Origin: a phage
Reading direction: 5' to 3' (one strand)
DNA length: 64,000 nt
Sequence record: PX092659.1
A program made the translations under genes and the position numbers. A model generated the notes under the pieces. It was not told the DNA's origin and ran no database searches. It was given only the letters and a program-made list of their open reading frames with translations. Positions 8,043 through 63,508 of the stretch are shown piece after piece; within the stretch, counting starts at the first letter, position 1, and every line of letters begins with the position of its first letter.

Positions 8043-10373
8043 ATGAGCCATCGCATTGAAAAAGTAATTAAACGTGACGGTACTGTAGAAGACTTTGCTC
8101 CTGAAAAACTCAATGGTTGGGCAGAGTATGGTTGCAAAACAGTTGATGTAAGTTGGTCAGCCATTACTATGGCTGCTCAAAAAACTCTACCTAAAGGGGT
8201 TGTAGATTCCGACACTCTGATGGACGCATTAATTAAAGCTGCTGAAAGTCTTATCAAAGATAACCCAGCATACGATGTGCCAGCAAAGGAATTACGTCTT
8301 GCGCAAATGCGTAAGCGCCTTTATGACTCTTTCGAACCACCTTCTCTACGTTTCTTCCATGACCATATGGTTAGCGTAGGTGCATGGGAAGACATGAGTG
8401 CATGGATTACCGATGAGCAATTTGAAGCTCTGAATCAGGTTATCGATCATGATCGTGACCGTCTTTTTACTAGTGGTGGACTGAAACAGTTCTTTGATAA
8501 GTATTCCCGTCGTAACATAGCCACTGGTGAAATTTATGAAACCCCGCAGTTTGCCTACATGGGTATGGCAATGGCGATGTTATCTCAACCTAACTGGACA
8601 ATTCTAGATGCAATCGACCTCTACAACGCAATGTCGCTCCACAAAATCAACGTTCCTACGCCGCCACTGGTTGGTCTGCGCTCTAGTGACCGTGGATTTG
8701 CTAGTTGCTGCCTCGTGGATTCCACTGACACGTTGGATTCAATCGACACCGCCGAGCACATCGTCTTCAAAATGGTCGCAGCCAGAGCGGGAATCGGGTA
8801 TCATCTTGAAAGCCGATCAATTGCTGATCCGGTGCGAAATGGGGCATTCCCGCATTCCGGAAAACTGCCATATTATAGACACATTGACCGCTCAGTAAAG
8901 GCCAATACTCAGCAAACTCGTGGGGGTTCTGCCACAGTGTCTTATCCATACTTCGACCCTGAAATCATTCAATTGATGCAGGTTAAGCAACAACGTGCTA
9001 CAGATGAGAATAAAATCGATAAGATGGATTATTCTCTGAGCTTCAACAATCTTTTGTTAAAACGTTATCTGAAAAATGAAGATATTACGCTAATGTCATA
9101 CTTCTATGCTCCAGAAGTTCATGAAGCGTTTTATAGTGATGACGAGGCTAAATTTGAAGAAATCTACGTGGCAGCGGAGAAACGTGTGGCATCTCTTACA
9201 AAGATCGACCACGAAGGAAAAACAGTTCCTGCAGCTCCTAAAGTCTCTGCAAAAGAAATCCTAGATACTTGGCTACGTATCCGAATGGAAACAGGACGTA
9301 TGTATGCTCATCACATCGGGGAATCTAATCGTCACGGTAACTTCCTTGATCCGATCCGTATGACAAACCTTTGTGTTGAGATTACTCAGCCTACGCGCCC
9401 GTTCCATCATATCACAGAACTGTATAAGACAAAAGAGCAGCTTGATCAAATGAAGCCGGAGGATATTGGTGAAGTATCTCTGTGTAACTTAGGTGGTGTT
9501 GTACTTGGGCGCATGGAATCTCTGGCTGAGTGGGAAAAAACTTGCTACATCCTTCTGAAATTCGTTGATACAATTATCGAAATTCAGGATTATCCGTTCC
9601 CAACTATGGAATATACGGCTAAGAAACGTCGTAATGTTGGTATTGGTCTAATGAACGCAGCAGGTGCAATGGCAGCAGAAGGTCTGGCTTATGAAGGTAT
9701 TGAAGCCCGTAACTGGATTCACCGTGAGGCTGAAAAACTGTCTTACTTCCTGCATAAAGCCTCTGTACGCCTAGCTAGAGAACAGGGCGCATGTGAGTGG
9801 TTTGATCGTACTAAACCATCTAAAGGAATTCTGGTAATCGACACGTACAAGAAAACTGTTGATGAACTGGTATCCGTAGGTCTAGAAATGGATTGGGAGT
9901 CTCTGCGTGCAGATATTCTGAAATACGGTATGCGTAACTCTGTTCTGACTGCTCAGATGCCGGGGGAAAGTTCCTCTGTTCTGTTAGGTGTTACTAACTC
10001 TATCGAACCGCCTCGTAAGATTGTATCTATCAAGGGTAGTGCAGTAAATAAAGTAATTGCAATTGCTCCAGGTGCAACCGATTGGGAAACGTTAATGAGC
10101 TATAAATTGGCTTATGATGTAGATCGTATCGAGTGGATCAAATGGGTAGCAACTATGCAGAAATTCTTCAGTCAGTCTATCAGTACGAATATGTACTATG
10201 ACTACACTAAGTTTGAGAATGAAATCATTCCTGGCCCAGTAGTAGTTCGTGATTTCATGACTGCTGTTAAGTATGGGTGGAAAACTTGGTATTATGCTAA
10301 CTTCAATACCGCAAATGGTGGAGGTGCTGGAGAAGAAGCAGCCGGTTGTGCATCAGGTGGTTGTACTATTTAA
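8043..10373 (+). CDS. nrdA: ribonucleoside-diphosphate reductase large subunit (class Ia)
   Basis: ATP-cone start MSHRIEKVIKRDGTVEDF after RBS; motifs NLCVEI and CNLG; C-terminal CASGGC tail. Confidence 0.9.
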   Translation: MSHRIEKVIKRDGTVEDFAPEKLNGWAEYGCKTVDVSWSAITMAAQKTLPKGVVDSDTLMDALIKAAESLIKDNPAYDVPAKELRLAQMRKRLYDSFEPPSLRFFHDHMVSVGAWEDMSAWITDEQFEALNQVIDHDRDRLFTSGGLKQFFDKYSRRNIATGEIYETPQFAYMGMAMAMLSQPNWTILDAIDLYNAMSLHKINVPTPPLVGLRSSDRGFASCCLVDSTDTLDSIDTAEHIVFKMVAARAGIGYHLESRSIADPVRNGAFPHSGKLPYYRHIDRSVKANTQQTRGGSATVSYPYFDPEIIQLMQVKQQRATDENKIDKMDYSLSFNNLLLKRYLKNEDITLMSYFYAPEVHEAFYSDDEAKFEEIYVAAEKRVASLTKIDHEGKTVPAAPKVSAKEILDTWLRIRMETGRMYAHHIGESNRHGNFLDPIRMTNLCVEITQPTRPFHHITELYKTKEQLDQMKPEDIGEVSLCNLGGVVLGRMESLAEWEKTCYILLKFVDTIIEIQDYPFPTMEYTAKKRRNVGIGLMNAAGAMAAEGLAYEGIEARNWIHREAEKLSYFLHKASVRLAREQGACEWFDRTKPSKGILVIDTYKKTVDELVSVGLEMDWESLRADILKYGMRNSVLTAQMPGESSSVLLGVTNSIEPPRKIVSIKGSAVNKVIAIAPGATDWETLMSYKLAYDVDRIEWIKWVATMQKFFSQSISTNMYYDYTKFENEIIPGPVVVRDFMTAVKYGWKTWYYANFNTANGGGAGEEAAGCASGGCTI

Positions 10374-50225: not shown

Positions 50226-50825
50226 GTCGGATTTGCACATTGTGTTTCTAGAAATTTATGGTCGGATTTGCACAAACGCCTAAGTTTTTAGGAACATATA
50301 ATCTCCTGAAAATAGCAGCATTATTTCGGGCCGAAGGCCCATGATTGCCTGAGTTTTTAGAGCCACAAGAATTTTCACTTGTCAAGCTATTTTGCCCCAT
50401 TTAGCTAATAAAATTTTACTTTTTCTGCACCTATCTCAAATTTCCCCAAATTATCTCAACTCTTCCCCAAAATCCCCGCAAATCAGGTGCTTCGCACCAA
50501 TCCTGCGCCCACATCCTTCTAGCTCCCAAATTTTTCTCGCTCTCTCATCTTCTCCTCAAACCTATACAATCACACACCCTCCAATCGAAGTCACAAAAAT
50601 CTTGTCGGATTCGCACATCTTAATCCTAGAAAAACCGTGTCGGATTTGCACATACCCCACAGGATTCGAACGCAGTTCGTGATTGCTGGAGTTTTTGGGA
50701 AAATTCGTCGTCGGATTCGCACATCACAAAAGTTTTTAGGGTCGGATTTGCACACTACCAAAAATTGTCGGATTCGCACATACACGCCAGCACGTAACCC
50801 TTGGAGCAAATGTCGGATTTGCACA
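50226..50825 (+). repeat. eight direct copies of GTCGGATT(T/C)GCACA
   Basis: Copies at 50226, 50261, 50604, 50639, 50710, 50741, 50767, 50812, all in the same orientation with irregular spacing. Confidence 0.85.
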
Positions 50826-50864
50826 AAAGCGCAGGGCAATTGCCCTGCTCGCCTGAATGCGAAT

Positions 50865-50957
50865 GATAATAAGAATCATTATCATTTAAAAAGCGAAATG
50901 AGAATGATAATAATTCGCATTTAAAAAGTGAAATGCGAATGATAATAATTCGCATTT
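50865..50957. promoter_or_regulatory. cluster of three AT-rich operator-like palindromes (Fur-box-like)
   Basis: 50865-50883 gataataagaatcattatc is 17/19 to GATAATGATAATCATTATC; 50896-50922 and 50931-50957 are 27-bp palindromes aaatg(a/c)gaatgataataattcgcattt. Confidence 0.45.
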
Positions 50958-50967
50958 AAGAATGGAA

Positions 50968-51099
50968 GTGAGAAACACTATTATTTAAGTTATCCACAGA
51001 CTTATTAACAGCACGATTTGACTTGACAGAATCCTAGCCATTTTGAGGCGTTATTAACAGACTTATCCACAGCTTATCCTACTGTATAAATATACAGTA
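50968..51099. repeat. left arm of ~130-bp imperfect inverted repeat carrying DnaA boxes and a LexA box
   Basis: Starts gtgagaaacact; TTATCCACA at 50990-50998 and 51063-51071, TTATTAACA variants at 51003 and 51050; about 80% identical to the reverse complement of 53916-54045. Confidence 0.8.
51080..51099. promoter_or_regulatory. LexA (SOS) box-like site
   Basis: TACTGTATAAATATACAGTA fits CTGT-N8-ACAG with AT spacer and TA flanks. Confidence 0.55.
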
Positions 51100-51293
51100 T
51101 TCCTATGTAGTGAATAATTCTAATATACCGCTAAAACGTCCTAGATCGCATTCTAACGCGTTTAATTTTGGTGGGGATACTAAAACAAGGGCAAAATTGG
51201 AGGAGGCTTAAAAATTAGTTAGCCCGCTAACGATCACACAAGGCGACACGTAACACCCTAATCATTAGCAGGCTAACCATCGCGGGCGCAGTC

Positions 51294-51314
51294 AAATGAG
51301 AATCATTCTCATTT
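51294..51314. promoter_or_regulatory. perfect 21-bp palindrome AAATGAGAATCATTCTCATTT
   Basis: Core TGAGAATCATTCTCA is 13/15 to Fur core TGATAATCATTATCA; same half-site as the palindromes at 50896-50957. Confidence 0.4.
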
Positions 51315-51355
51315 GAGAATTGGGGGTACTCCCTGGTAGTTGCGCCCCGTGATTA

Positions 51356-51550
51356 TTAGTCCGGTAATTGATGCGTGATCTTCTCCTCCTCCCCGTAGGA
51401 ATCGACCAAATGCTGATAATAACCATCGTGATCATAAATCACTTTATCATACTCGCCCCGCTCGACCGCTTGCCGGTTTTCCGGCGTATCGGGCACGTAA
51501 AAAACATCAACCATTGTACTGATTTTGGTTACAACAATTTTATTGCTCAT
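51356..51550 (-). CDS. hypothetical protein (64 aa)
   Basis: Last ORF of the minus-strand cassette. Confidence 0.45.
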   Translation of the reverse strand: MSNKIVVTKISTMVDVFYVPDTPENRQAVERGEYDKVIYDHDGYYQHLVDSYGEEEKITHQLPD

Positions 51551-51891
51551 TGCGCCACCTTTCGAAACGCTGTTTCAATACTATCCGCAGTGGATTGAAT
51601 ATATGCGCCTTTCATTATCAGGCGCTCGGTGCATATCTTGCGGAAAATATTAATAAAATCATCTTCATTTTCTGCAATTAACGCTTCACCCATAACCTGA
51701 ACGTCACAAGATGCAAAGGTCAAAAATTGAAACGCTAGTTCACGGGCAACGACCGCATTGATTTTATAATGCGCCGTGCCCTCATAAATATTAATAACGC
51801 CCTTATAAGCTGGTGAAAGCTGGTTTAAATAGTTTGCTAATAATGCCGGACGGCAATTAGCAACAAAGCGGTTGCCCTCATAAATAACCAT
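51547..51891 (-). CDS. hypothetical protein (about 114 aa)
   Basis: Listed ORF 51547..51930 trimmed to internal ATG (MVIYEGN). Confidence 0.45.
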   Translation of the reverse strand: MVIYEGNRFVANCRPALLANYLNQLSPAYKGVINIYEGTAHYKINAVVARELAFQFLTFASCDVQVMGEALIAENEDDFINIFRKICTERLIMKGAYIQSTADSIETAFRKVAQ

Positions 51892-51892
51892 T

Positions 51893-52105
51893 TTATAACA
51901 CTCCCCGAAACGCAGCGTAAAAGGTGGCAAAGTGTTTAACCGTTTCAGCGATCACGTTGCCGCGCTTGTCGAATTTTTTCTCGGTAACACGAAAGGCATT
52001 TTTGTTACGTGCTACATATTCGATTTTACAATCTTCCCGCTCGAACGTGCTAACATCCACCAGCTTAAAGCCTTTCGAACGAGCAAGAGAAACGTTGCGG
52101 ATCAT
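51893..52105 (-). CDS. hypothetical protein (70 aa)
   Basis: ORF; AGGAG RBS on minus strand. Confidence 0.45.
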   Translation of the reverse strand: MIRNVSLARSKGFKLVDVSTFEREDCKIEYVARNKNAFRVTEKKFDKRGNVIAETVKHFATFYAAFRGVL

Positions 52106-52107
52106 TT

Positions 52108-52257
52108 TTATTCTCCTTTACTAGTCATGCAGCCCAGCAGATAAGAAAATACAGCAATGCCAGCACCAACAATAACGGCGTGAACACCGAAAGCTATTGC
52201 AAACAACGATAAAATAGCGCCCAAGATACCTGCCAGAATAGCTCGAAAAATAACCAT
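52108..52257 (-). CDS. small membrane protein (49 aa)
   Basis: Hand-translated minus-strand ORF MVIFRAILAGILG...; stop abuts next start; below ORF-track cutoff. Confidence 0.3.
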   Translation of the reverse strand: MVIFRAILAGILGAILSLFAIAFGVHAVIVGAGIAVFSYLLGCMTSKGE

Positions 52258-52306
52258 TTGTAATACTCCCCTAGTTAGTGGGGCGAAAGTAACGCCCCGT
52301 TATTAA

Positions 52307-52570
52307 TTACATTAAAACAATTTTTGCCGCTTGTTTTTTGGTACAGTGTTCCGCTTTCAGGGTATCCAGCAAAAAGCCAGCCGTTTGCTGATCAATCTTA
52401 TCAGCGTTATACAATTCTTGGATGGTGTTATAAGTTTTAGCAATGCCGTATTCTTGCACCATTTCGTGAATAATAACGCGATTAGACACCCAGCCTTGAG
52501 CGGTAAACAGATGACTAGCAGAAGAGTATGCAACCATTTTAAGCCTCCAAATTTTTGGGAAAATTTTCAA
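52307..52570 (-). CDS. hypothetical protein (87 aa)
   Basis: ORF in cassette. Confidence 0.45.
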   Translation of the reverse strand: MKIFPKIWRLKMVAYSSASHLFTAQGWVSNRVIIHEMVQEYGIAKTYNTIQELYNADKIDQQTAGFLLDTLKAEHCTKKQAAKIVLM

Positions 52571-52600
52571 CCGTCCTCAAACGGTGTAAAGGCATTATAA

Positions 52601-52629
52601 CAAAAAAGGCCGCTGATTATGGCGGCCTT
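52601..52629 (-). terminator. intrinsic terminator (minus strand)
   Basis: Stem aaggccgc/gcggcctt; on minus strand followed by TTTTTTG; downstream of the 330-aa gene. Confidence 0.65.
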
Positions 52630-52655
52630 TACAAAACTTTACACTAGGTTAATTA

Positions 52656-53648
52656 TTACTCGCTTTCGGTGCTAGTGGTAAAAGTAGAAATATCAATACC
52701 TTTCACCATTTCATCAATCATCTCAGCGATGTTAAAACTTTGCACCATTTCTAACATAGCCGCTTCCATAGCTGCACCCGCTACCGCTTTCGCCTTTTGG
52801 TTAGCAGGGGCGTACTGGTCAACCGCTACGCTCAGCAGGTTGGCAATCACTACTCGACCAATCGGCGTATCAATATAACCTTTGATCATGAATGGTGCTT
52901 TTTTAGCCGCTACTTTCGTGATTTGGGTTAATGCAATTTTACCCGCTTCCAGTTTTGCAGCATTTACAATAGCGGATTTATTAGCGGCAACGATGTTAGC
53001 AATCTTGGTCATGGTGTTTTTTCCTTTGTTTTCAGTAGTTTGAATTTTAACGCTTTGAGTGTTAGAATTTACAGCATGGTTTTCCGTATTGTCAATAGGC
53101 TGATTTTCATCTTTCCAGAAAGTAAAACCGGCTTCCTGTATCAGATCATTATAAACATACGGGTATAACTCCGACGGTAACAAAAAATTACCGTTATCAT
53201 CAAAAGCCATTACAGCCGCAAAACGATACCCGTCATAATCTGATCGATTCCATCCAACTGATAAATAACGCCAAAATGAATCGAGAAAATTTTCTACGTC
53301 ATAAAGATCCTTATCATAAGGCTCATAATTTTCTATCGTGAAAACTTCTAAGCTCGCCCCCGCATCATAGGCTTTTACTGTATTGCCTTTTACTACGATA
53401 AAATCAGTATCTGGCCCTCGACTAGTAAGCAAGTGAGATTCCTGATTATATAAAACAAGCGTTGCCCCTTGCTTATATAACGGTAGAAAACTATTCATAT
53501 TATAAGCATCATAATCATCAAAAAAGTTATGATGAATAGTTTCAATATTGAAAACAAAATGTTTGATGCTGGTTGTTCTGCTACCGTCCAGCAGGTTACG
53601 CAGCGCACCTTTTAAGATGGTTGCGTTATCTGGTTTATATAGCCTCAT
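52656..53648 (-). CDS. hypothetical two-domain protein (330 aa)
   Basis: N-terminal ~180-aa domain, polar linker, Ala/Lys-rich helical C-terminus; first gene of the cassette. Confidence 0.55.
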   Translation of the reverse strand: MRLYKPDNATILKGALRNLLDGSRTTSIKHFVFNIETIHHNFFDDYDAYNMNSFLPLYKQGATLVLYNQESHLLTSRGPDTDFIVVKGNTVKAYDAGASLEVFTIENYEPYDKDLYDVENFLDSFWRYLSVGWNRSDYDGYRFAAVMAFDDNGNFLLPSELYPYVYNDLIQEAGFTFWKDENQPIDNTENHAVNSNTQSVKIQTTENKGKNTMTKIANIVAANKSAIVNAAKLEAGKIALTQITKVAAKKAPFMIKGYIDTPIGRVVIANLLSVAVDQYAPANQKAKAVAGAAMEAAMLEMVQSFNIAEMIDEMVKGIDISTFTTSTESE

Positions 53649-53915
53649 TTGTTCGGCCTCCCTCGTTAATCGGTGAGTGAATGATAAAGGTAATTTTCTA
53701 ACATAGGCAAATATTATTTTACCTTTTTATTTTCCTTGCCTAGCGCCTAGTTTTATGCTAACCGCGCAGCGGTGCAATAAAGAGCAAAACACGGCGAAGC
53801 CACCAGGGCGACGGGTGAAGGCTTTACTTTAATATTGCCCCACCGCATTTAGCTCGTTAGAAAGCGTTTTAGGCCGCTTAAAATTGATTGCAGTTGTTAA
53901 CACTACCTTTCTACC

Positions 53916-54045
53916 CTGTATATTTATACAGTAGGATAACCTGTGGATAAGTCTGTGGATAAGCCCTTATATCGCCGCCTATCGTGTCAAATCAAAAAGT
54001 GCTGTGGATAACGTTGTGGATAACTTAAATAACAGTGTTTCTCAC
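53916..54045. repeat. right arm of inverted repeat carrying a LexA box and four DnaA boxes
   Basis: CTGTATATTTATACAG at 53916-53931; TGTGGATAA (reverse complement of TTATCCACA) at 53942, 53954, 54003, 54015; ends agtgtttctcac. Confidence 0.8.
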
Positions 54046-54213
54046 TAACTAATTTATAAAGTTATTATATCGTAAAACATAGTTAGTTGGCTAATAGGAT
54101 TTTACCGTGATTATGAGTCTGCTAACTAATCCTGAAAAACTCATTAGCTCGCTTGCTAACTATTTTGATATAATATAATAGAGATTAAATTAATAACATA
54201 AGGAAACAATTAG

Positions 54214-54732
54214 ATGCCTAAATATAAAGATATAGATTATGACCTTTTTAATAGTTACTTTTATTATGATGAAACAGCGTTATCATTTTTACGTTGGCGG
54301 GAGGATCACGCCGTCGCAGGTGGTTTAAATGGTAATTATTGGCAAGTTGAATTATTAGACATGGGGCAATTCAAAGTACATAGAATTATCTTTTGTATAA
54401 TGAATGGCGGTATAGATAGCGAGCTAATGATTGACCATATTGATCGTAACACACGTAACAATAACATCTGGAATCTTCGCGCGGTTGATAGTTCGCAGAA
54501 TAATTATAATCGTACTCCTAGTGAGTATGAAAACTGTAAGCGTGCTAATGGTATCCCTAGAAACATTTACGTTAATAAAGTTCGCCCCCGTGATAGTTTC
54601 GGGCGTGATTATTTAACTGCTCAAATTAAGAATCCTATTACTAACAAGCGTGTTAGTAAGCCTGGTTATGATTTACAAGAGTTATTATTATGGCTTGAAG
54701 CTAAAAAAGCTGAATTTGGAATTGTCAATTAA
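54214..54732 (+). CDS. HNH endonuclease
   Basis: VHRIIFCIMNGGIDSELMIDHIDRNTRNNNIWNLRAV...QNN. Confidence 0.65.
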   Translation: MPKYKDIDYDLFNSYFYYDETALSFLRWREDHAVAGGLNGNYWQVELLDMGQFKVHRIIFCIMNGGIDSELMIDHIDRNTRNNNIWNLRAVDSSQNNYNRTPSEYENCKRANGIPRNIYVNKVRPRDSFGRDYLTAQIKNPITNKRVSKPGYDLQELLLWLEAKKAEFGIVN

Positions 54733-55121
54733 TTAATTTTATAAAATAACTCGTTTAGTCTTGATTTTTAAAAGTCAAGACCTTTTTCAACTATTTTTCA
54801 ATTTTGCGGTTGTTAAATATTTGTTAAGTCAAAAATAAGCGGCCTAAAACGCCCTAGAACGCGATGAAAGTTTTAGCCATGCCATTGCATTGCCTACCCT
54901 CGTTTATCGCTACCACGAGCTTTTTAGATTTTGTCAAGTAGGGCAAGGCAAATAAAACTGAAAAAATTACTTGCCAACCTGCTGGGTTTTATGGTATTCG
55001 CGCGCCCGTTTCCTTTAAACTTAGGTGAGCGCCGGACGCGGTGCGGTGAAACTGTGTTAGCCATATTGCTAATAATTTTGGTATAATATAATAACCAAAT
55101 GAAACTAATAGGAGAATATTA

Positions 55122-55463
55122 ATGATTGAGCTAACAAAAGATATTGATTTAGAAACTGTACTAGATAATCTTTACTATGATGAAACTAGTCCCAGTTGCC
55201 TACGGTGGAAAGTATCCCGCCCCGGTTGCGCCCTTCATGGGGTAGCAGGTACTAAAAGAAAGGATGGTTACTGGTCTGTACAGCTCAATAAAGAGCGTTA
55301 CTTAGCGCATCGTATTGTGTGGTTATTATTTAATTATAAAATAGATAGCAAACTAGTAATTGATCATATTGATCGTAACCCTAGTAATAATTTTATTGAT
55401 AACTTACGGTTAGTAACTCAAGCCGAAAACAACCAAAATAAGGGAGGCTATAGAAAGGCGTAA
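55122..55463 (+). CDS. HNH endonuclease-like protein (paralog of 54214..54732)
   Basis: AHRIVWLLFNYKIDSKLVIDHIDRNPSNNFIDNLRLV...ENN. Confidence 0.6.
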   Translation: MIELTKDIDLETVLDNLYYDETSPSCLRWKVSRPGCALHGVAGTKRKDGYWSVQLNKERYLAHRIVWLLFNYKIDSKLVIDHIDRNPSNNFIDNLRLVTQAENNQNKGGYRKA

Positions 55464-57187: not shown

Positions 57188-58852
57188 ATGATTATTTCCG
57201 CAGAAAAACAAACCGTTATCCTGAAAATGGCCGCTGACTTTAATTTCTATGGTAAACGTCTGCGCGCCACTAAACTGGAGGTCTGCGACGATATATCAAA
57301 AGCGGTCTATGATACTACAAAACACTCGACCGCGATTTGTGATTGGTTGGAAGCAAATAAACCAGCGAAACCAAAAGCGGCGAAAGTAGCAAAAGCCATT
57401 AAAAACGACGAGCGCCCAGAAGCGGCGGGGATTGTTTCTAGTACCGTGGAACAATGGGAAGTAAAACAAGGTAAACGCTTTATTATTACGTCGATTCAGA
57501 ATAATACTTTCCCGCATAAAAACTTTTTAGCCTCGTTGGAGCAATTTGCTAAATATATCGGCGCTGATTTGCTGGTTAGCAAGTATATTTATAATAAAAA
57601 CGGATTCCAAAATGGCGAGGGTGCAGATGGAATAAAATATGATTCCGCGTTCGATAAATATATTTGCAGCAAAAACGTGTTTTTGAATAATCGCCGTTTT
57701 GCTTTCATGGCTGAAATTAACGTTTTGCCCACCGCAGATTATCCGCTTTCTGGATTCGCTGAAACTGCAACCGCGCTTAATCTGGAAGGTCTGGCAATTG
57801 GAGCGGCTAAAATCACCGCCGAAAGCGTGCCAGCTTTAAAAGGTGAAATTGTGCGCCGCATGTATTCAACCGGAACGGCAACGCTCAAAAACTACATTCA
57901 GCAGAAAGCAGGGCAAAAAGCCGAAGCATTGCATAATTACGGTGCGCTTATTGTCGAGTTTGATGAGGACGGTGAATTTTTTGTTCGCCAGCTTGAAACG
58001 ATGGACGAAAGCGGCATGTTTTATGATCTGAATATCTGCGCGACCCCCGCCGGATGTTTTGAAACGTCCGATCATGTTTTAGGCTTGCAATATGGCGATA
58101 TTCACGCCGAAAAATTAGATGATGATTGTGCCGTTGCGTCATGGGCTGGCGAAAATAGCTTGCTTGATATTCTCAAGCCTAAATATCAGTTTATCCATGA
58201 CGTGCATGATTTCACATCACGCAACCATCATAACCGTGCGTCAGGTGTATTCCTAGCGAAACAGTATGCAGCCGGACGTGATAAAGTTCTGGATGATCTT
58301 ATCGATACCGGTCGCGTGCTGGAATCAATGGAACGCGATTTTAGCCAAACAATCATTGTTGAATCGAATCACGATTTGGCGCTATCCCGTTGGCTTGATG
58401 ATCGTAATGCTAACATTAAAGACGATCCAGCCAATGCGGAACTATATCACCGCCTAAATGCTGCGATTTATGGAGCTATTGCAAAGCAGGATGATACTTT
58501 CAACGTGCTAGATTATGCGCTGCGTAAGGTTGCAGGTTGTGAGTTTAACGCCATTTTCCTAACGACTGACCAATCTTTCAAGATTGCAGGCATTGAATGC
58601 GGCGTACACGGTCACAACGGCATAAACGGCAGCCGTGGCAATCCGAAACAGTTTAAGAAATTGGGTAAACTGAACACGGGGCACACTCACACCGCCAGCA
58701 TTTACGGCGGGGTATACACCGCTGGCGTGGCTGGTAGTCTGGATATGGGTTACAACGTTGGCGCGTCAAGCTGGACGCAAACGCATTTAATTACATATGC
58801 AAACGGTCAGCGCACTTTGATCGACTTTAAAAACGGTAAATTCTTTGCCTAA
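57188..58852 (+). CDS. A1: pre-early A1-like protein, predicted metallophosphatase/nuclease
   Basis: 554 aa; GDIH, HDVHD, ESNHD, GVHGHNG, GHTH phosphoesterase motifs; position and size match phage T5 A1. Confidence 0.65.
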   Translation: MIISAEKQTVILKMAADFNFYGKRLRATKLEVCDDISKAVYDTTKHSTAICDWLEANKPAKPKAAKVAKAIKNDERPEAAGIVSSTVEQWEVKQGKRFIITSIQNNTFPHKNFLASLEQFAKYIGADLLVSKYIYNKNGFQNGEGADGIKYDSAFDKYICSKNVFLNNRRFAFMAEINVLPTADYPLSGFAETATALNLEGLAIGAAKITAESVPALKGEIVRRMYSTGTATLKNYIQQKAGQKAEALHNYGALIVEFDEDGEFFVRQLETMDESGMFYDLNICATPAGCFETSDHVLGLQYGDIHAEKLDDDCAVASWAGENSLLDILKPKYQFIHDVHDFTSRNHHNRASGVFLAKQYAAGRDKVLDDLIDTGRVLESMERDFSQTIIVESNHDLALSRWLDDRNANIKDDPANAELYHRLNAAIYGAIAKQDDTFNVLDYALRKVAGCEFNAIFLTTDQSFKIAGIECGVHGHNGINGSRGNPKQFKKLGKLNTGHTHTASIYGGVYTAGVAGSLDMGYNVGASSWTQTHLITYANGQRTLIDFKNGKFFA

Positions 58853-59312: not shown

Positions 59313-59392
59313 TAGTTGATTTATTATTGCCCGCTATTTATAAGCGGGCAATGCTGGATAAACTAAATCCCTTAAATGGAGAACGTAACAAA

Positions 59393-60127
59393 ATGAATCA
59401 AGTTAAAACGAATATTACCCGTAATTTCCCGCATATTTCCCGCGTCATGATTTGGGATCTGGACGGCACTATCATTAATTCTTTCCATCGCGTAGCGCCT
59501 TGCTTTGATAGCGAGGGCAATTTAGATTTAAATAAGTATAAAAATGAAGCCTGCAAACATGATTTAATAATGCAAGATACACTATTGCCCCTTGTTACAT
59601 ATATGCGCCAGTGCATGAATGACGCAAATACTTTAAACATTATTTGCACCGCTCGACTAATGAGCAAGTCGGACTATTATTATTTGCGCAAACAAGGCTT
59701 GCGCGGTCGTGGTAATAGTAATATCCGCGTGTTTTCCCGTGATACACTGCATAAATATTTTGAGGCTGATAAAGTTAGCGAGATATACCACAGCAAAGAC
59801 GCAGTTTATAAAAGTTACTATTTTGGGCTATTCAAACAATTATATCCGAACGCTGATTTTACAATGATTGATGATCATAAAGGCGTGCTATCAGCGGCAG
59901 CGTCATACGGATTTAAAACGCTGGACGCGCAAGCCGTTAATGATATTCTATCGATCGGCGTTACATTGATAGGTGAAACCTTTATTGATGAATCTCTTGA
60001 GGATGATAATGATTATCAGTTCCTAGCCGATCGCTTGCAATTATGTTGGGAAAGTATGACCGAAGAAGAACGCGCAGAATATAGTTGCAGCCCGCAACAA
60101 TATATTGAGAAATTAAAAGTTGCGTAA
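59393..60127 (+). CDS. dmp: HAD-family 5'-deoxyribonucleotidase-like protein
   Basis: HAD motif I WDLDGTIIN; 244 aa from ATG 59393 (listed ORF starts further upstream at 59327). Confidence 0.65.
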   Translation: MNQVKTNITRNFPHISRVMIWDLDGTIINSFHRVAPCFDSEGNLDLNKYKNEACKHDLIMQDTLLPLVTYMRQCMNDANTLNIICTARLMSKSDYYYLRKQGLRGRGNSNIRVFSRDTLHKYFEADKVSEIYHSKDAVYKSYYFGLFKQLYPNADFTMIDDHKGVLSAAASYGFKTLDAQAVNDILSIGVTLIGETFIDESLEDDNDYQFLADRLQLCWESMTEEERAEYSCSPQQYIEKLKVA

Positions 60128-60144
60128 TAATTAAAGTTGAAATT

Positions 60145-60181
60145 GTTTCACCCTGCAATTAAAATGGTTGCAGGGTGAAAC
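60145..60181 (+). terminator. strong hairpin (possible terminator) after the dmp-like gene
   Basis: Perfect 14-bp stem gtttcaccctgcaa/ttgcagggtgaaac with 9-nt loop; no clear T-run. Confidence 0.45.
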
Positions 60182-60291
60182 AGTTAGCATGGTAATAGTA
60201 ACGGGGGTGGCGGTTAGCAGACTAAGTATTTTCGCCGGAGGCAGTGAGCACACCCTCATGTGTAATCTTATGAAATTTGGCAAAAGTCAAA

Positions 60292-60537
60292 TTAGCGCAT
60301 AGAAGGGTCATCAAACCTGTGTTCTGGTCTGAACTCACGGAATCTCTTCCGCGACGCCCGAGAACCATCCGACCACTCCCGTTCAAACTCCGCACGTTTC
60401 TCCGAGAATCTCCGCTCTCTTTCCGCAATCTCCCGCGATACTTCCGCAATATATTTACGATGCTTGTTAATAGCCGCAGTCATTCCGAAAACTCCCGCGA
60501 TTATCCCGATAATAAAAGCAACTATAATACTAAACAT
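60292..60537 (-). CDS. small membrane protein (81 aa), last of tandem array
   Basis: N-terminal TM helix MFSIIVAFIIGIIAGVFGM then R/E-rich tail. Confidence 0.45.
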   Translation of the reverse strand: MFSIIVAFIIGIIAGVFGMTAAINKHRKYIAEVSREIAERERRFSEKRAEFEREWSDGSRASRKRFREFRPEHRFDDPSMR

Positions 60538-60724
60538 CTAATTCCCTCTCAATTTGCAGAATACGGGTACTATCACAACGTTGAAGTTCTACTAATTTTT
60601 CTATAGCAAATTGTTGCTGCTTTACCTGGGCCTCTAGAGTTTTTAGACGAACATACGCGGTATAAGAAACAATGAAAATTGCCCAGACTAGTATTACTAT
60701 TAGTGTAGCTGCCACTTCCATCAT
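60530..60724 (-). CDS. small membrane protein (64 aa)
   Basis: N-terminal TM helix then coiled-coil tail; ATG overlaps upstream stop. Confidence 0.45.
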   Translation of the reverse strand: MMEVAATLIVILVWAIFIVSYTAYVRLKTLEAQVKQQQFAIEKLVELQRCDSTRILQIERELDV

Positions 60725-60828
60725 TTACGTTTCTCCAGTAATAAGGTTTCAACTCTAGCTAAGTGATTATCTAAAATACATTGCCCGATAATCACAATCC
60801 CTAGTAATGCAATAATTACCCATTCCAT
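60721..60828 (-). CDS. small membrane protein (35 aa)
   Basis: Hand-translated MEWVIIALLGIVIIGQCILDNHLARVETLLLEKRK; ATG overlaps stop of upstream ORF. Confidence 0.3.
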   Translation of the reverse strand: MEWVIIALLGIVIIGQCILDNHLARVETLLLEKRK

Positions 60829-60983
60829 TATTTACGCTCCTCTAATAAAATTTCAATCCTAGATAATCTGTTACTCAACTGTACTAATTTAACTTCTACT
60901 TGTGTTATAGAGGTATCTATTACACGTAAGCCTACAAAGAGAAGTATCAGTAAGACGAATATGCCAATAATTACCCATTCCAT
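60828..60983 (-). CDS. small membrane protein (51 aa)
   Basis: Listed ORF 60828..61013 trimmed to MEWVIIGIFVLLILLFVGL..., paralogous to 60721..60828. Confidence 0.4.
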   Translation of the reverse strand: MEWVIIGIFVLLILLFVGLRVIDTSITQVEVKLVQLSNRLSRIEILLEERK

Positions 60984-61111
60984 TAAATCCACCCCGCCAT
61001 AGCTGCTAACCAAAAACCTACGAAAATAAAGAATAGGATAGTTCCGAATCCAAAGCTATTAATCCAACTATCGTACACTTCTCCGCGTCTATTCTTTCTT
61101 TTATTTGACAT
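60983..61111 (-). CDS. small membrane protein (42 aa), first of tandem array
   Basis: Hand-translated MSNKRKNRRGEVYDSWINSFGFGTILFFIFVGFWLAAMAGWI; GGAG RBS upstream on minus strand. Confidence 0.3.
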   Translation of the reverse strand: MSNKRKNRRGEVYDSWINSFGFGTILFFIFVGFWLAAMAGWI

Positions 61112-61272
61112 GTCTTTCATACTCCTGTAAATGTTGTATTTGGAATATTCTAGCAATTGCACGAGTCATAACATTTTATCTTATATGGTGTTCTGAATGA
61201 CCTCAATTGCATTGTGAACTAGTTTTGACCTAGGATCCACCCCGGTACACATTCCTGGAAAGATTTTTCCTG

Positions 61273-61506
61273 TTAGAAAGCCCCTTCGCATGTATTTCCT
61301 TCGGTAAAGTAGCTTACCGGAGCCCAGAAAGACCCGTAGGCCATGATTGGTGCCACTAAGAACATATCCCCTTTCCTATCAAAAACATTGGCCTTATATT
61401 TCACATGATCCTGCATATAGTAGGCCTCACATTTAATATCTTTAGGCCCAAAAGTAGAGCAAGCCGAAAGAAGTACCACTGCCAGAGCTAAAAATAATTT
61501 TTTCAT
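61273..61506 (-). CDS. llp: Llp-like lipoprotein (lytic-conversion / receptor-blocking type)
   Basis: 77 aa; signal peptide with lipobox LLSAC; divergent from the adjacent receptor-binding gene, the arrangement known for T5 llp/oad. Confidence 0.65.
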   Translation of the reverse strand: MKKLFLALAVVLLSACSTFGPKDIKCEAYYMQDHVKYKANVFDRKGDMFLVAPIMAYGSFWAPVSYFTEGNTCEGAF

Positions 61507-61585
61507 TTACATTCTCCTCTATTTAATTTATAATACTATTATACAGAATTATGGCAGTATAAGCAACTAAATTTTTGGAGAACTT

Positions 61586-63508
61586 ATGAGTTTTTTCGCT
61601 GGTAAGCTAAATAACAAATCTATACTCTCACTGCGAAGGGGTAGTGGTGGGGATACTAACCAACATATCAACCCTGATTCCCAAACCATCTTTCACTCAG
61701 ATATGCCGCACGTAATTATAACGGAAACTCATTCTACTGGGTTAAGGTTGGATCAGGGTGCTGGTGACTATTACTGGTCTGAGATGCCTAGTAGAATTAC
61801 ACAGCTACATAATAATGACCCCAATAGAGTTGTGCTAACAGAAATTGAGTTTTCTGATGGCTCTAGACATATGTTATCTGGCATGTCTATGGGGGTAGGG
61901 GCTAAAGCGTATGGAATTATAAATCCGCAGGTCATGTCTCAAGGTGGTTTAAAAACACAAATAACAGCTAGTGCTGATCTATCTCTTGATGTGGGCTATT
62001 TTAATAGTGGTACTAGTGGAACTATCCCCCAGAAATTAAGAGACGGTACTGGATGTCAGCATATGTTTGGCGCCTTTAGTGGGCGTAGAGGGTTTGCATC
62101 TAGTGCAATGTATTTAGGGGGTGCCGCTCTTTATAAGTCTGCCTGGGATGGTTCAGGATATGTAGTGCCGGATTCAGGAACTCTAACTATCCCTAGCGAC
62201 TACGTTAGGCATCCCGGAGCTAGAAACTTTGGATTTAACGCCATATATGTTCGTGGTAGGTCTTGTAATAGAGTTCTTTATGGTATGGAAGGGCCCAACT
62301 ACACCACTGCTGGAGCTGTACATGGGGCGTCGAGTTCAGGGGCTCTTAACTTTATGTCTAATCCTAGCAATCCCTCGGCTCCTAAGTACTCTGTAGGTTT
62401 CGCACGTGCTGATCCCACTAACTATGCGTATTGGGAAAGTATGGGTGATCCGAATGATGCTGCTAATGGGCCCATAGGTATATATAGTGAGCACCTCGGT
62501 ATTTATCCATCTAAAATTACCTGGTATGTTACTAACTTAGTGTATAATGGTTCAGGTTATAGTATTGATGCTGGATTATTTACAGGTAATGATATAAAAT
62601 TAAGCCCCACTGAATTTATTATTAAAGGTATTAACGTTAATAATACATCTTGGAAGTTTATCAACTTTGTTGAGAAAAACTTTAATGTAGGGAGCAGAGC
62701 TGATTTTCGTGATGTTGGGTGTAACTTGAGTATGGGTGGCCCCTCTACTGGGATCTCTGGCATAGCAACATTTGGACTACCAACCACAGAAAGCAATAAC
62801 GCACCAAGTATTAAGGGTGGTAACGTTGGTGGTTTAAATACTAATGTAGTTAGTATTTATAACTTTTTACCTTCAGCATCTTGGTATGTTTCTAGTAATC
62901 CTCCAAAAATAGGGAGTAATTATGGGGACGTTTGGAGTGAAAATCTTCTACCTTTAAGACTTCTAGGTGGTAGCGGAAGTACTGTACTATCTGGTAACAT
63001 AGTATTTCAGGGTAATGGTTCCGTGCATGTTGGTACTGTGGGACTAGATCTTAATAGTAGTAGAAATGGTGCAATTGTATGTACTATGGAGTTCCTAGAT
63101 GACACATGGTTGTCTGCAGGAGGTATTGGCTGCTTTAATCCTACGGAAATGCTATCTAAAGGCGCTGAATATGGCGATAGTAGGTTTAGAATGGGTGGCA
63201 ATACTATTGATAAAAAACTTCACCAAATATTGTCCCTACCTGCAGGAGAATATGTACCATTTTTTACTATTAAAGGTACTGTAGTAAATGCTTGTAAATT
63301 ACAGGCTGCTGGGTATACTCCAACTCCGTACTGGGTATCTGGGTTGCCAGGATCCGTAGGTCAAACGGGTTACTATACTCTAACATACTATATGAGAAAT
63401 GATGGAAATAATAATATCTCTATTTGGTTAGAATCCTCTATGAGCAATATAATTGGCATGAAAGCATGCTTACCAAATATTAAACTTATAATTCAACGCC
63501 TTACCTAA
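61586..63508 (+). CDS. oad: receptor-binding tail protein pb5/Oad-like
   Basis: 640 aa, Gly/Ser/Asn-rich, divergent from llp; size and context match T5 pb5. Confidence 0.65.

What the first reader, a model, noticed from the sequence alone, without database searches (positions are those of the whole stretch)
50968..54045. ~130-bp inverted repeats with DnaA and LexA boxes bracket a 2.8-kb minus-strand cassette
Segments 50968-51099 and 53916-54045 are imperfect inverted copies of each other (about 80% identity by hand alignment). Each ends, on the cassette-proximal side, with a near-consensus LexA box (TACTGTATAAATATACAGTA at 51080; CTGTATATTTATACAG at 53916). Each also carries DnaA boxes: two TTATCCACA plus two TTATTAACA variants on the left, four perfect boxes on the right. 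Between them lie six co-directional minus-strand ORFs (51356-53648) of unknown function with their own terminator. Inverted repeats flanking a gene block are the architecture of invertible or mobile segments, and stacked LexA plus DnaA sites suggest host-factor control. Injection-stop regions of T5-type phages are known to contain DnaA boxes and repeats; I cannot verify whether the LexA boxes or the inverted-repeat symmetry are already described.
Basis: partly seen in the sequence, partly recalled or inferred. Interest (0 to 1): 0.8.

Follow-up and report, generated by a model that had tools for sequence, protein, structure and literature searches.

The report
T5 inverted repeats carry LexA operators
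The two inverted repeats are a long-known feature of the first-injected DNA of T5-type phages. Each one ends in a near-perfect binding site for the host SOS repressor LexA, placed exactly 10 bp from a DnaA box and conserved across the whole phage family, which gives a new testable candidate for what pauses T5 DNA injection.

Summary
Arms 50967-51112 and 53901-54046 are 78% complementary over 146 nt. They hold 4+4 DnaA-type boxes and, at their inner ends, the only two strong LexA-type sites in 64 kb.

The structure is not new. The window is a T5-like phage, and the arms are T5's annotated IRC-spacer-IRD / IRD'-spacer-IRC' repeats in the terminal repeat (first-step-transfer DNA). The left LexA box is T5's annotated "palindrome D". 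The eight DnaA boxes and the repeat symmetry are published, and they are tied there to the injection stop signal.

The LexA reading is absent from every T5 paper I could search. The module [DnaA box]-10 bp-[CTGT-N8-ACAG] recurs in nine Demerecviridae genera of Escherichia, Salmonella, Yersinia, Klebsiella, Pectobacterium, Proteus and Vibrio phages, although the surrounding sequence has diverged.

It is not an active invertible or mobile element. It has no recombinase, and none of 455 related records carries the inverted junction. However, the cassette lies in the opposite orientation in Klebsiella and Pectobacterium relatives, so the repeats have allowed rare evolutionary inversions.

The cassette is the leftward pre-early operon. 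It includes the toxic T5.011 homologue and the Ung-dependent nicking endonuclease. The most likely function of the arms is a DnaA+LexA docking module on newly entered DNA.

The parts
50967..51112 (+). Left (injection-stop-proximal) arm of the inverted repeat. It corresponds to T5 IRC'-spacer-IRD' plus palindrome D.
   Evidence: I1; 91% identical to T5 AY587007 9332-9462 region; outer end is about 131 bp from the equivalent of the T5 7.9% nick/palJ at 50831-50848
50990..50998 (+). DnaA box TTATCCACA (consensus)
   Evidence: 95.6% column conservation in 60 arms
51002..51010 (+). Variant DnaA box TTATTAACA, 3 bp after the first box
   Evidence: called a DnaA* box by Davison
51051..51059 (+). Variant DnaA box TTATTAACA
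51063..51071 (+). DnaA box TTATCCACA (consensus), 10 bp upstream of CTGT
51072..51081 (+). Conserved 10-bp linker GCTTATCCTA. It holds a third TTATCC at 12-bp period, and its weak DnaA-like 9-mer TTATCCTAC overlaps the LexA 20-mer.
   Evidence: gap is 10 bp in most genera
51080..51099 (.). LexA-type operator TACTGTATAAATATACAGTA (19/20 to consensus). Same element as T5 'palindrome D'.
   Evidence: HI 0.46; T5 record 9330-9349 is this 20-mer
51294..51314 (-). Palindrome AAATGAGAATCATTCTCATTT, the equivalent of T5 palindrome C (putative terminator ending the cassette)
   Evidence: (D1/I10)
51356..51550 (-). ORF of 64 aa, last gene of the cassette, unknown function (phrog_6973)
51547..51891 (-). 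ORF of 114 aa counted from the ATG (127 aa from TTG at 51930), unknown function (phrog_4379). Corresponds to tag T5.015 of AY543070.
51893..52105 (-). ORF of 70 aa in the family labelled 'endonuclease nicking abasic sites generated by host Ung'
   Evidence: phrog_4227 E=2.9e-49; RefSeq label on tag T5.014; function described in PMC8201957
52108..52257 (-). ORF of 49 aa, hydrophobic (T5.013-like, two transmembrane segments)
52307..52540 (-). ORF of 77 aa (87 aa from TTG at 52570), unknown function (phrog_5145)
52605..52630 (-). Intrinsic-terminator-like hairpin after the first gene of the cassette
   Evidence: T5 has a terminator at the same place
52656..53648 (-). ORF of 330 aa, T5.011 homologue (DUF7566), first gene of the leftward pre-early operon. 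It is toxic when expressed in E. coli.
   Evidence: Pfam PF24450 E=1.6e-111; toxicity reported in PMC8201957
53654..53742 (-). Promoter region of the cassette (equivalent of the characterised T5 promoter upstream of gene 011)
   Evidence: T5 annotation; promoter-like hexamers at 53742-53713 and 53710-53681; bioRxiv 10.64898/2026.04.02.716235
53914..53933 (.). LexA-type operator. Read on the minus strand it is TACTGTATAAATATACAGGG.
   Evidence: HI 3.67; lies about 170 bp upstream of the cassette promoter region and does not overlap it
53942..53962 (-). Pair of consensus DnaA boxes (TGTGGATAA x2, 3-bp gap), 10 bp from the LexA box
54003..54023 (-). Second pair of consensus DnaA boxes
53901..54046 (-). 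Right (A2-proximal) arm, corresponding to T5 IRC-spacer-IRD. It lies between the divergent cassette and hegG promoters.

Best explanation
The two arms are the IRC-spacer-IRD and IRD'-spacer-IRC' inverted repeats of the terminal repeat (first-step-transfer DNA) of a T5-like phage. They bracket the leftward pre-early operon: the T5.011 homologue, a small membrane protein, the Ung-dependent nicking endonuclease, and others. Each arm is a docking module for host DNA-binding proteins. It consists of an outer motif AGTGAGAAACACT, two pairs of DnaA boxes, and a near-consensus LexA operator exactly 10 bp beyond the last DnaA box. Shown: the identity with the T5 repeats, the quality of the motifs, their strong conservation, and their family-wide co-occurrence at fixed spacing. 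Inferred: when the first 8% of the genome enters, LexA dimers and DnaA already present in the cell occupy both modules within seconds. The iss-proximal module is the last DNA in, about 130 bp from the pause point. The resulting nucleoprotein complex helps to hold or organise the entered DNA during the injection pause, rather than acting as a classical promoter switch. The arms are not a programmed inversion switch. As long inverted homologies, they have allowed rare inversions of the operon during the evolution of the family.
For: Identity: megablast to 538 T5-like records. T5 annotation lists IRC/IRD, IRD'/IRC', palindrome D, iss and the nick. Davison describes the 131-bp repeats with 8 DnaA boxes in 25 phages. 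LexA quality: HI 0.46 and 3.67, with nothing else below 8.5 in 64 kb and 0.115 sites below HI 8 expected. In each of 40 related 12-20 kb loci, the only exact CTGT-N8-ACAG sites are those in the arms. Constraint: CTGT+ACAG columns are 98.5% conserved, against 75% for the spacer and 64-72% for the flanks. The variants seen are mostly LexA-tolerated ones (CTGG, CCAG, changes inside N8). Family-wide: LexA-type boxes with HI 0.5-5.5 sit next to DnaA boxes in Proteus, Pectobacterium, Yersinia, Klebsiella and four Vibrio phage lineages whose A2 protein is only 35-65% identical. The N8 spacers differ (ATAAATAT, TTATTTAT, ATATAATT, ATATCCAT, GTATTTAT) but CTGT/ACAG is kept. The DnaA-to-CTGT gap is 10 bp in most genera, and 0.12 such composites are expected per shuffled 64 kb. 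Not a hairpin: the stems are weak (-2 to -4.6 kcal/mol) and are not maintained in distant relatives. Not a switch. Evolutionary inversion.
Against: No binding data exist, so LexA occupancy is inferred from sequence only. The HI matrix was rebuilt from sites recalled from memory. Neither box overlaps a known promoter, so the canonical LexA mechanism does not apply and the proposed function is indirect. How proteins bound to DNA that is already inside the cell could stop further entry is unexplained. A T5-like phage (ESCO40) is recorded with host DH5a, which is recA1 (own knowledge). RecA-driven LexA cleavage therefore cannot be required for the lytic cycle. Four of 30 distinct right arms carry ACAA instead of ACAG (HI 6.4 for the commoner variant, ACAAGG), so the A2-proximal box is dispensable in some phages. 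Older subscription papers (Heusterspreute 1987; Wang 2005; Davison 2015) could not be read, so an earlier mention of an SOS box cannot be excluded.
Confidence: 0.65

Rival explanations
1. Active invertible or mobile cassette. The arms are recombination sites, and the 2.8-kb segment flips or moves within phage populations to switch expression.
For: Inverted repeats flank a gene block. The operon lies in the opposite orientation in Klebsiella Sugarlandvirus and Pectobacterium My1. The inner flank is swapped in the Klebsiella phage. The distance between arms and the gene content vary, from 1.7 to 4.0 kb.
Against: No invertase, integrase or transposase family is found in or next to the cassette, and T5 phages are not known to encode one (own knowledge). 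None of 455 matching records contains the inverted junction. All close relatives share one orientation. The arms are only 78% alike, and orthologous arms are closer than paralogous ones. There are no target-site duplications (sequence).
Confidence: 0.05
2. SOS-responsive transcription control. LexA represses a promoter that overlaps a box, so that part of the pre-early programme (or a transcript through the DnaA boxes towards hegG/A2/A1) responds to the host's DNA-damage state.
For: A promoter-like site TTAACA-16-TATATT at 53897-53924 (+) has its -10 hexamer inside the right box. The -35 TTAACA is conserved in most Tequintavirus right arms. The cassette encodes a DNA-nicking toxin.
Against: The -35 element is absent in T5 itself and in several relatives. 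The left box has no promoter-like partner. The three characterised pre-early promoters lie elsewhere, and the cassette promoter region begins about 170 bp from the box. No promoter arrangement is conserved with the box in distant genera.
Confidence: 0.12
3. The palindrome is the target of a phage protein: A2 (DNA-binding), or A1 acting as the restriction-like cutter that Davison proposed for palindromes of this region. The likeness to the LexA operator is then incidental.
For: Davison lists palD among the candidate A1 cleavage palindromes. A1 and A2 are conserved in every genome that carries the box.
Against: The match is 19/20 to one specific host operator. CTGT/ACAG is retained while A2 diverges to 35% identity, whereas a co-evolving phage protein and its site would be expected to drift. 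The site is adjacent to the sites of a second host protein (DnaA) at fixed spacing.
Confidence: 0.13
4. DnaA-directed function without injection control. The arms act as a datA/DARS-like DnaA sink or as a secondary origin, and LexA gates extension of a DnaA oligomer onto the weak third site that overlaps the box.
For: There are eight DnaA boxes in oriC-like pairs. A third TTATCC at 12-bp period overlaps the LexA 20-mer. A DnaA+LexA composite is known at uvrB (PMC6015884).
Against: [quoted passage not shown] No unwinding element was identified. The host chromosome is destroyed within minutes, which makes control of DnaA activity of doubtful value.
Confidence: 0.05

Closest known systems
T5 inverted repeats IRC-spacer-IRD / IRD'-spacer-IRC' with palindrome D (GenBank AY587007 features; Davison, bioRxiv 10.1101/866236)
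   Same: Same locus, same geometry and 79-91% sequence identity. DnaA boxes come in pairs 3 bp apart. Both bracket the T5.011 operon and lie next to the iss repeats and the 7.9% nick.
   Different: This phage has 8 boxes (6 consensus) where T5 has 7. It lacks the T5.016/T5.017 segment and carries a different HNH gene set. The published descriptions name palD only as a palindrome and never mention LexA or SOS.
E. coli SOS boxes (operators of recA, sulA, umuDC, etc.)
   Same: CTGT-N8-ACAG with TA flanks and an AT-rich spacer. The left box is closer to the consensus than any chromosomal box in my recalled list.
   Different: The boxes do not overlap a known promoter. They occur as an inverted pair 2.8 kb apart on the DNA of an obligately virulent phage, each fused to a DnaA-box array.
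uvrB promoter region (LexA boxes plus a DnaA box; PMC6015884)
   Same: LexA and DnaA sites are juxtaposed on one short stretch of DNA.
   Different: uvrB is a chromosomal promoter with a transcriptional read-out. Here the spacing is a fixed 10 bp, there are four DnaA boxes per module, and there is no associated conserved promoter.
LexA-controlled temperate phages and mobile elements (e.g. GIL01 P1/gp7, PMC4551915; CTXphi and coliphage 186 tum from own knowledge)
   Same: A phage borrows the host LexA repressor through SOS boxes on its own DNA.
   Different: Those boxes sit on lysogeny or induction promoters of temperate elements. T5-like phages are strictly lytic, and here the boxes are non-promoter elements of the first-injected DNA.
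Phage invertible segments (Mu G / P1 C / Salmonella Hin systems; own knowledge)
   Same: Inverted repeats flank a gene block in a phage genome.
   Different: Those systems use short (about 26-34 bp) crossover sites and an adjacent serine invertase, and both orientations coexist in a population. Here the arms are 146 bp and 78% alike, there is no recombinase, and 455 records show one orientation.

Membership tests
T5-type IRC-spacer-IRD / IRD'-spacer-IRC' repeats of the FST/terminal-repeat region | Sequence homology to the T5 arms, at the same map position between A2 and the iss repeats | tested here: met
   Left arm 91% and right arm 79% identical to T5; synteny o294 - DRD - nick/palJ - DRC - arm - cassette - arm - hegG - A2
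T5-type IRC-spacer-IRD / IRD'-spacer-IRC' repeats of the FST/terminal-repeat region | Four DnaA or DnaA* boxes per arm, in two pairs with a 3-bp gap inside each pair | tested here: met
   50990/51002 and 51051/51063; 53942/53954 and 54003/54015; matches Davison's description
T5-type IRC-spacer-IRD / IRD'-spacer-IRC' repeats of the FST/terminal-repeat region | Acts in cis as (part of) the injection stop signal | not testable with these tools
   Only a positional argument is available: the arm ends about 131 bp from the nick equivalent. The literature itself says experimental proof is lacking (PMC10644984).
Gammaproteobacterial LexA operator (SOS box) | 20-bp motif TACTGT-(AT-rich)8-ACAGTA with a low heterology index | tested here: met
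   HI 0.46 and 3.67 with a matrix rebuilt from recalled sites; 19/20 and 17/20 matches to the consensus
Gammaproteobacterial LexA operator (SOS box) | Evolutionary retention of CTGT/ACAG while the spacer varies | tested here: met
   98.5% conservation in 60 arms; retained with five different spacers across distant genera
Gammaproteobacterial LexA operator (SOS box) | Overlaps or adjoins a promoter that it represses | tested here: not met
   No overlap with the characterised promoters. There is only a lineage-specific promoter-like match at the right box.
Gammaproteobacterial LexA operator (SOS box) | Bound by LexA in vitro or in vivo and released on RecA-stimulated cleavage | not testable with these tools
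   Needs EMSA, footprinting or ChIP
Site-specific invertible DNA segment | Dedicated recombinase gene in or next to the segment | tested here: not met
   Pfam and PHROGs scans of all six cassette ORFs and the adjacent hegG gave DUF7566, HNH and unknown families only
Site-specific invertible DNA segment | Both orientations present among close relatives or within populations | tested here: not met
   One orientation in all Tequintavirus/Epseptimavirus loci; 0 of 455 records span the synthetic inverted junction. Read-level data were not available.
Site-specific invertible DNA segment | Segment found inverted between identical flanks in some lineage | tested here: met
   The T5.011-type operon lies on the A2 strand in Klebsiella IME260-type phages and in Pectobacterium My1, between arms that keep their positions. 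The swapped inner flank is clear on one side in the Klebsiella phage.
Composite transposon / insertion element | Transposase gene and target-site duplication outside the terminal inverted repeats | tested here: not met
   No transposase. The bases outside the arms (..AATGGA | AACTAA..) are not a duplication.
DnaA-box cluster of the oriC / datA / DARS type | Clustered consensus DnaA boxes | tested here: met
   6 of the window's 13 consensus boxes lie within 292 bp
DnaA-box cluster of the oriC / datA / DARS type | Adjacent DNA-unwinding element or IHF site, and an effect on replication or DnaA nucleotide state | not tested
   No scan for 13-mer unwinding elements or IHF sites was made. T5 origins are reported elsewhere.

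The most novel reading that the evidence does not exclude
LexA, together with DnaA, is a host component of the T5 injection stop or hold complex. The family-wide DnaA-10 bp-LexA module is the cis element that captures the just-entered end of first-step DNA. Its occupancy, which is sensitive to the host's SOS state or is displaced by A1/A2, sets the timing of second-step transfer.
Probability: 0.12. Interest if true: 0.9.

Novelty: new variant of a known kind. Interest (0 to 1): 0.6.

Why it matters
Why T5 DNA entry halts after 8% and how it resumes has been open since the 1960s. The only recent proposal, membrane-bound DnaA on the eight boxes, is untested. If the annotated 'palindrome D' and its partner are near-perfect LexA operators, held 10 bp from a DnaA box in phages of Escherichia, Salmonella, Yersinia, Klebsiella, Pectobacterium, Proteus and Vibrio, then there is a second concrete host factor to test. 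The tools exist: lexA(Def), lexA(Ind-) and recA hosts, purified LexA, and engineered box mutants. It would also be an unusual use of LexA, by a strictly virulent phage, away from any conserved promoter, on the first DNA to enter the cell. If LexA turns out to be irrelevant, the result is still useful. It shows that the reported architecture is the known T5 repeat pair, that it is not a present-day inversion switch, and that it has nevertheless permitted operon inversions between genera.

Tried and rejected
(1) Hairpin or cruciform as the conserved feature: single-strand DNA folds are weak (-4.6, -4.1, -3.7 and -2.0 kcal/mol). In Proteus and Vibrio D116 only 5-6 bp can pair, and several variants break the symmetry without compensation. 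Rejected.

(2) Known RNA family: Rfam at E<=1 gave only two sub-threshold sRNA matches over the 52605-52630 terminator hairpin. Rejected.

(3) LexA-repressed promoter as the conserved role: the only candidate (53897-53924) lacks its -35 element in T5 and has no counterpart at the left box or in distant genera. Kept as a minor rival.

(4) Transposon or invertase: no such gene was found.

(5) RecA-dependent 'LexA timer' as an essential step: a T5-like phage is recorded on DH5a, which is recA1 (own knowledge). Rejected as essential.

(6) A second scan of viral contigs with an A2 alignment returned the same 40 loci. Distant relatives had to be taken from the annotated phage collection.

(7) Davison 2015 could not be retrieved by DOI or PMC id. 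Wang 2005 and Heusterspreute 1987 are not in the library.

(9) An attempt to confirm SOS-box sequences or HI values from PMC2994835 found no sequences, so the matrix rests on recalled sites.

(10) Swapped inner flanks: the signal is clear only for the Klebsiella A2-proximal flank. The Klebsiella iss-proximal flank and both My1 flanks are ambiguous.

(11) A Fur-box reading of the neighbouring DRC palindromes was followed only partly.

Full report
WHAT IS THERE

The region was read directly and scanned for repeats. The arms are 50967-51112 and 53901-54046: 146 nt, 78% complementary (114/146 ungapped), 2788 nt apart.

Read from the outside inwards, each arm contains:
- AGTGAGAAACACT..ATTTAAG;
- a pair of DnaA-type boxes 3 bp apart;
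- about 40 bp of less conserved spacer;
- a second pair of boxes;
- a 10-bp linker G(C/G)TTATCCTA;
- a 20-bp LexA-type palindrome.

The left arm has TTATCCACA at 50990 and 51063 and TTATTAACA at 51002 and 51051. The right arm has four perfect boxes at 53942, 53954, 54003 and 54015. Together these are 6 of the 13 consensus boxes in the whole 64-kb window.

The LexA-type 20-mers are TACTGTATAAATATACAGTA (51080-51099) and, on the minus strand, TACTGTATAAATATACAGGG (53914-53933). I rebuilt a heterology-index matrix from 24 E. coli SOS boxes recalled from memory; its consensus comes out as the textbook TACTGTATATATATACAGTA. With it the boxes score 0.46 and 3.67, and the next best site in the window scores 8.5. 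In 200 Markov-1 simulations of 64 kb, the mean number of sites below HI 8 is 0.115 and no simulated site is as good as the left box.

Six minus-strand ORFs fill 51356-53648.

WHAT IT IS

Megablast against 50,697 phage records finds 538 T5-like genomes. The window maps, in reverse orientation, onto T5 coordinates of about 5.1-10.6 kb. This is the left terminal repeat, which is the first-step-transfer (FST) DNA.

In GenBank AY587007 the arms are annotated as 'inverted repeat C/D' (6022-6152) and 'inverted repeat D'/C'' (9332-9462). 'Palindrome D' (9330-9349) is exactly the left LexA-type 20-mer.

AY543070 places the 'injection stop signal (iss)' over 9140-10149. The equivalent of the major 7.9% nick and palindrome J is at window 50829-50848, about 131 bp outside the left arm.

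Davison's preprint (10.1101/866236) describes the 131-bp IRCspacerIRD / IRD'spacerIRC' pair and their eight DnaA boxes in 25 phages. It notes their variable separation and proposes that membrane-bound DnaA stops injection. BF23 authors state that experimental work on these sites is lacking.

So the inverted-repeat symmetry and the DnaA boxes are already known.

THE CASSETTE

The cassette is the leftward pre-early operon.
- The 330-aa ORF is the T5.011 homologue (Pfam DUF7566, E=1.6e-111).
- The 70-aa ORF belongs to the family labelled 'endonuclease nicking abasic sites generated by host uracil glycosylase Ung' (phrog_4227; RefSeq label).
- PMC8201957 reports that 011 and the Ung-dependent protein are toxic to E. 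coli.
- The other four ORFs have no assigned function.
- A characterised promoter lies immediately upstream of gene 011.

The right arm therefore sits between the divergent cassette and hegG promoters. The left arm sits downstream of the cassette's terminator (the palindrome C equivalent, about 51294-51314).

THE LEXA READING

Davison's paper contains no occurrence of 'LexA' or 'SOS'. Six full-text searches combining LexA or SOS box with T5, T5-like, Tequintavirus, Demerecviridae, first-step transfer or injection stop returned no relevant paper. Three older subscription papers could not be read.

Comparative data argue that the likeness is not incidental:

(i) In 40 loci from about 28 related phages anchored on the A2 gene, both arms are always present in the same relative orientation. 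The only exact CTGT-N8-ACAG sites in each 12-20 kb locus are those in the arms.

(ii) In an alignment of 60 distinct arms, the eight CTGT/ACAG columns are the most conserved element:

| Element | Conservation (major-base frequency) |
|---|---|
| CTGT + ACAG columns | 98.5% |
| Two best DnaA boxes | 95.6-95.7% |
| Spacer | 75% |
| Flanks | 64-72% |

The variants are mostly ones known from real SOS boxes (CTGG, CCAG, changes within N8). The exception is ACAA in four right arms.

(iii) In distant Demerecviridae whose A2 protein is only 35-65% identical, the surrounding DNA is no longer alignable, yet LexA-type boxes with HI 0.5-5.5 flank the pre-early cassette next to DnaA boxes. These phages are:
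- Klebsiella IME260 (Sugarlandvirus);
- Pectobacterium My1 (Myunavirus);
- Proteus VTCCBPA139 (Novosibvirus);
- Vibrio phi 3 (Jesfedecavirus);
- Vibrio Bennett (Thalassavirus);
- Vibrio PG07 (Pogseptimavirus);
- Vibrio D116.

The N8 spacers differ (ATAAATAT, TTATTTAT, ATATAATT, ATATCCAT, GTATTTAT, ATAAATAA) while CTGT/ACAG is retained. This is the pattern expected of a LexA site and not of a sequence conserved merely by descent.

(iv) The gap between the last DnaA box (at most 1 mismatch) and CTGT is exactly 10 bp in the window (both arms), T5, phiR2-01, an SH9-like phage, IME260, My1 and PG07. It is 11 bp in the Proteus phage and 9 bp in Bennett. A shuffled window yields 0.12 such composites.

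(v) As single-stranded DNA the palindrome is a weak hairpin (-2 to -4.6 kcal/mol), and its stem is not preserved in distant relatives. This argues against a purely structural role.

IS IT INVERTIBLE OR MOBILE?

Not as a present-day mechanism:
- Neither Pfam nor PHROGs finds a recombinase or transposase.
- There is no target-site duplication.
- The cassette genes are on the strand opposite to A2 in every Tequintavirus and Epseptimavirus locus.
- A synthetic junction (outer left flank plus left arm, joined to the inverted inner right flank) is spanned by none of 455 matching records. The best places cover only the part that corresponds to the native right arm.
- Orthologous arms are 90-100% identical, whereas the two arms of one genome are 78% identical. 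Exchange between arms is therefore rare.

Nevertheless, orientation differs between genera:

| Phage group | Orientation of the T5.011-type operon relative to A2 |
|---|---|
| Tequintavirus, Epseptimavirus | opposite strand |
| Proteus phage | opposite strand |
| Klebsiella Sugarlandvirus | same strand; order T5.011 homologue then o127 homologue preserved |
| Pectobacterium My1 | same strand (T5.011 and o64 homologues) |

In the Klebsiella phage the inner flank next to the A2-proximal arm is of the type that T5 has next to the iss-proximal arm (alignment scores 32-41 against 8-12). The non-inverted control phiR2-01 shows the unswapped pattern (41-44 against 9-17). The other Klebsiella flank and both My1 flanks are ambiguous.

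At least one inversion between the arms has therefore occurred during the evolution of the family. Given the A2 identities, two is likely.

HOW IT MOST LIKELY WORKS

Shown: two high-quality LexA operators and eight DnaA-type boxes, held in a fixed composite under strong constraint, at both ends of the leftward pre-early operon. The iss-proximal copy is the last DNA to enter before the pause.

Established background (own knowledge): uninfected E. coli contains on the order of a thousand LexA dimers and a similar number of DnaA molecules. A near-consensus operator is bound with high affinity.

Inferred: LexA and DnaA load onto both modules as soon as the FST DNA enters. They form a nucleoprotein complex that contributes to holding or organising that DNA during the pause. 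This extends Davison's DnaA model with a second host factor.

I put about 0.9 on LexA binding in vitro, about 0.7 on the boxes being maintained for LexA binding, and about 0.3 on a role in the injection pause specifically.

Points against:
- There is no conserved promoter at the boxes.
- It is unclear how proteins on DNA that is already inside the cell would stop entry.
- A T5-like phage is recorded on DH5a, a recA1 strain (own knowledge). LexA cleavage therefore cannot be an essential release step.

Rivals considered:
- a lineage-specific LexA-repressed promoter at the right box;
- a phage protein (A2, or A1 as a cutter) as the true ligand;
- a datA- or origin-like DnaA function gated by LexA;
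- the inversion switch.

COMPARISON WITH KNOWN SYSTEMS AND VERDICT

As a structure this is a member of the known T5 repeat family; all sequence-level criteria are met. As a LexA site it meets the motif and conservation criteria but fails the 'overlaps a promoter' criterion. I therefore describe it as working like a LexA operator without filing it as an SOS-regulated promoter.

The nearest precedent for adjoining LexA and DnaA sites is the uvrB promoter (PMC6015884). The nearest precedent for phage use of LexA is temperate phages such as GIL01 (PMC4551915).

The finding as stated is mostly already known. What appears to be new is:
- the identification of palindrome D and its partner as LexA operators;
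- their family-wide coupling to a DnaA box at a 10-bp gap;
- the evidence for evolutionary inversion.

I rate it a new variant of a known kind, with interest 0.6. The LexA idea gives a cheap and decisive set of experiments on a long-standing question, but its functional relevance is unproven.

Noticed in passing
window 50856-50966 (also 51292-51310): The DRC repeats/palindromes between the left arm and the nick resemble Fur boxes. GATAATAAGAATCATTATC at 50865 matches 17/19 of GATAATGATAATCATTATC, with 15/19 at 50900 and 14/19 at 50935 and 51292. Five sites of >=15/19 are observed in the window against 0.43 expected. Similar sites occur in T5, Klebsiella, phiR2-01, SH9-like, My1 and PG07, but not in the Proteus, D116, Bennett or phi 3 loci. 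T5 uses the Fur-regulated FhuA receptor (own knowledge). Whether Fur binds is unknown.
   Followed up: partly
window 50226-50827: Eight copies of GTCGGATTYGCACA (T5 'direct repeat D') lie just beyond the nick, on the second-step side. No binding protein is known for them.
   Followed up: no
window 51089-51090 and 53923-53924; arms of L001-L042: The two central bases of the LexA palindrome flip between AA and TT among phages. Among the 30 distinct left arms, 21 are AA-type (16 with the exact 20-mer) and 9 are TT-type. The intermediates TA and AT are never seen; TA would give the perfect consensus. This looks like a concerted 2-bp inversion, for example by hairpin template switching, rather than two point mutations.
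   Followed up: partly
window 51063-51083 and 53930-53950: TTATCC recurs three times with a 12-bp period (TTATCCACAGCTTATCCTACTGT). The third, weak DnaA-like 9-mer TTATCCTAC overlaps the first bases of the LexA 20-mer. The 10-bp linker is itself conserved across genera.
   Followed up: partly
window 53897-53924 (+): A promoter-like site TTAACA-16-TATATT has its -10 hexamer inside the right LexA box and points towards hegG/A2. The -35 element is conserved in most Tequintavirus right arms but is replaced in T5 and a few others.
   Followed up: partly
window 51113-51190, 53820-53900 and 54829-54868: The inverted homology continues more weakly for about 90 nt inside both arms (shared CCTAAAACG, TTCTAACG, GGTGGGG). 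A third copy of the CCTAAAACGC..CTAGAACGC motif lies at 54829-54868 (T5 IRB/IRB') (I2). In My1, phiR2-01, phi 3 and Bennett this motif directly follows a half-degenerate LexA-like palindrome CTGTATAWWTATACATG.
   Followed up: partly
L048 (Yersinia phiR2-01) 8924-9044: The inner part of the iss-proximal arm (LexA box plus adjacent DnaA* boxes) is duplicated in tandem, giving two perfect TACTGTATAAATATACAGTA boxes 101 bp apart. This agrees with Davison's remark about a duplicated IRD'.
   Followed up: no
window 54214-54732 and 55122-55463: Two HNH homing-endonuclease genes lie between the right arm and the A2 region. Their presence and type vary from phage to phage.
   Followed up: no
window 59327-63508: After A1 (57188-58852) and the ORF at 59327-60127, which by synteny should be the deoxynucleotidase gene dmp, a 640-aa plus-strand ORF follows at 61586-63508. 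This suggests the window comes from an assembly in which the terminal repeat is collapsed to one copy and joined to the other genome end.
   Followed up: no
window 51893-52105; T5 NC_005859 8086-8298: There is a numbering mismatch. RefSeq and PHROGs attach the 'Ung-dependent abasic-site nicking endonuclease' label to the 70-aa protein with locus tag T5.014, whereas the paper (PMC8201957) calls the protein T5.015.
   Followed up: partly
window 52587-52639 (+): Sub-threshold Rfam matches (STnc320 at 29.8 bits against a gathering score of 50; STnc430) fall on the strand opposite the cassette's internal terminator hairpin. They most likely reflect only the hairpin.
   Followed up: no
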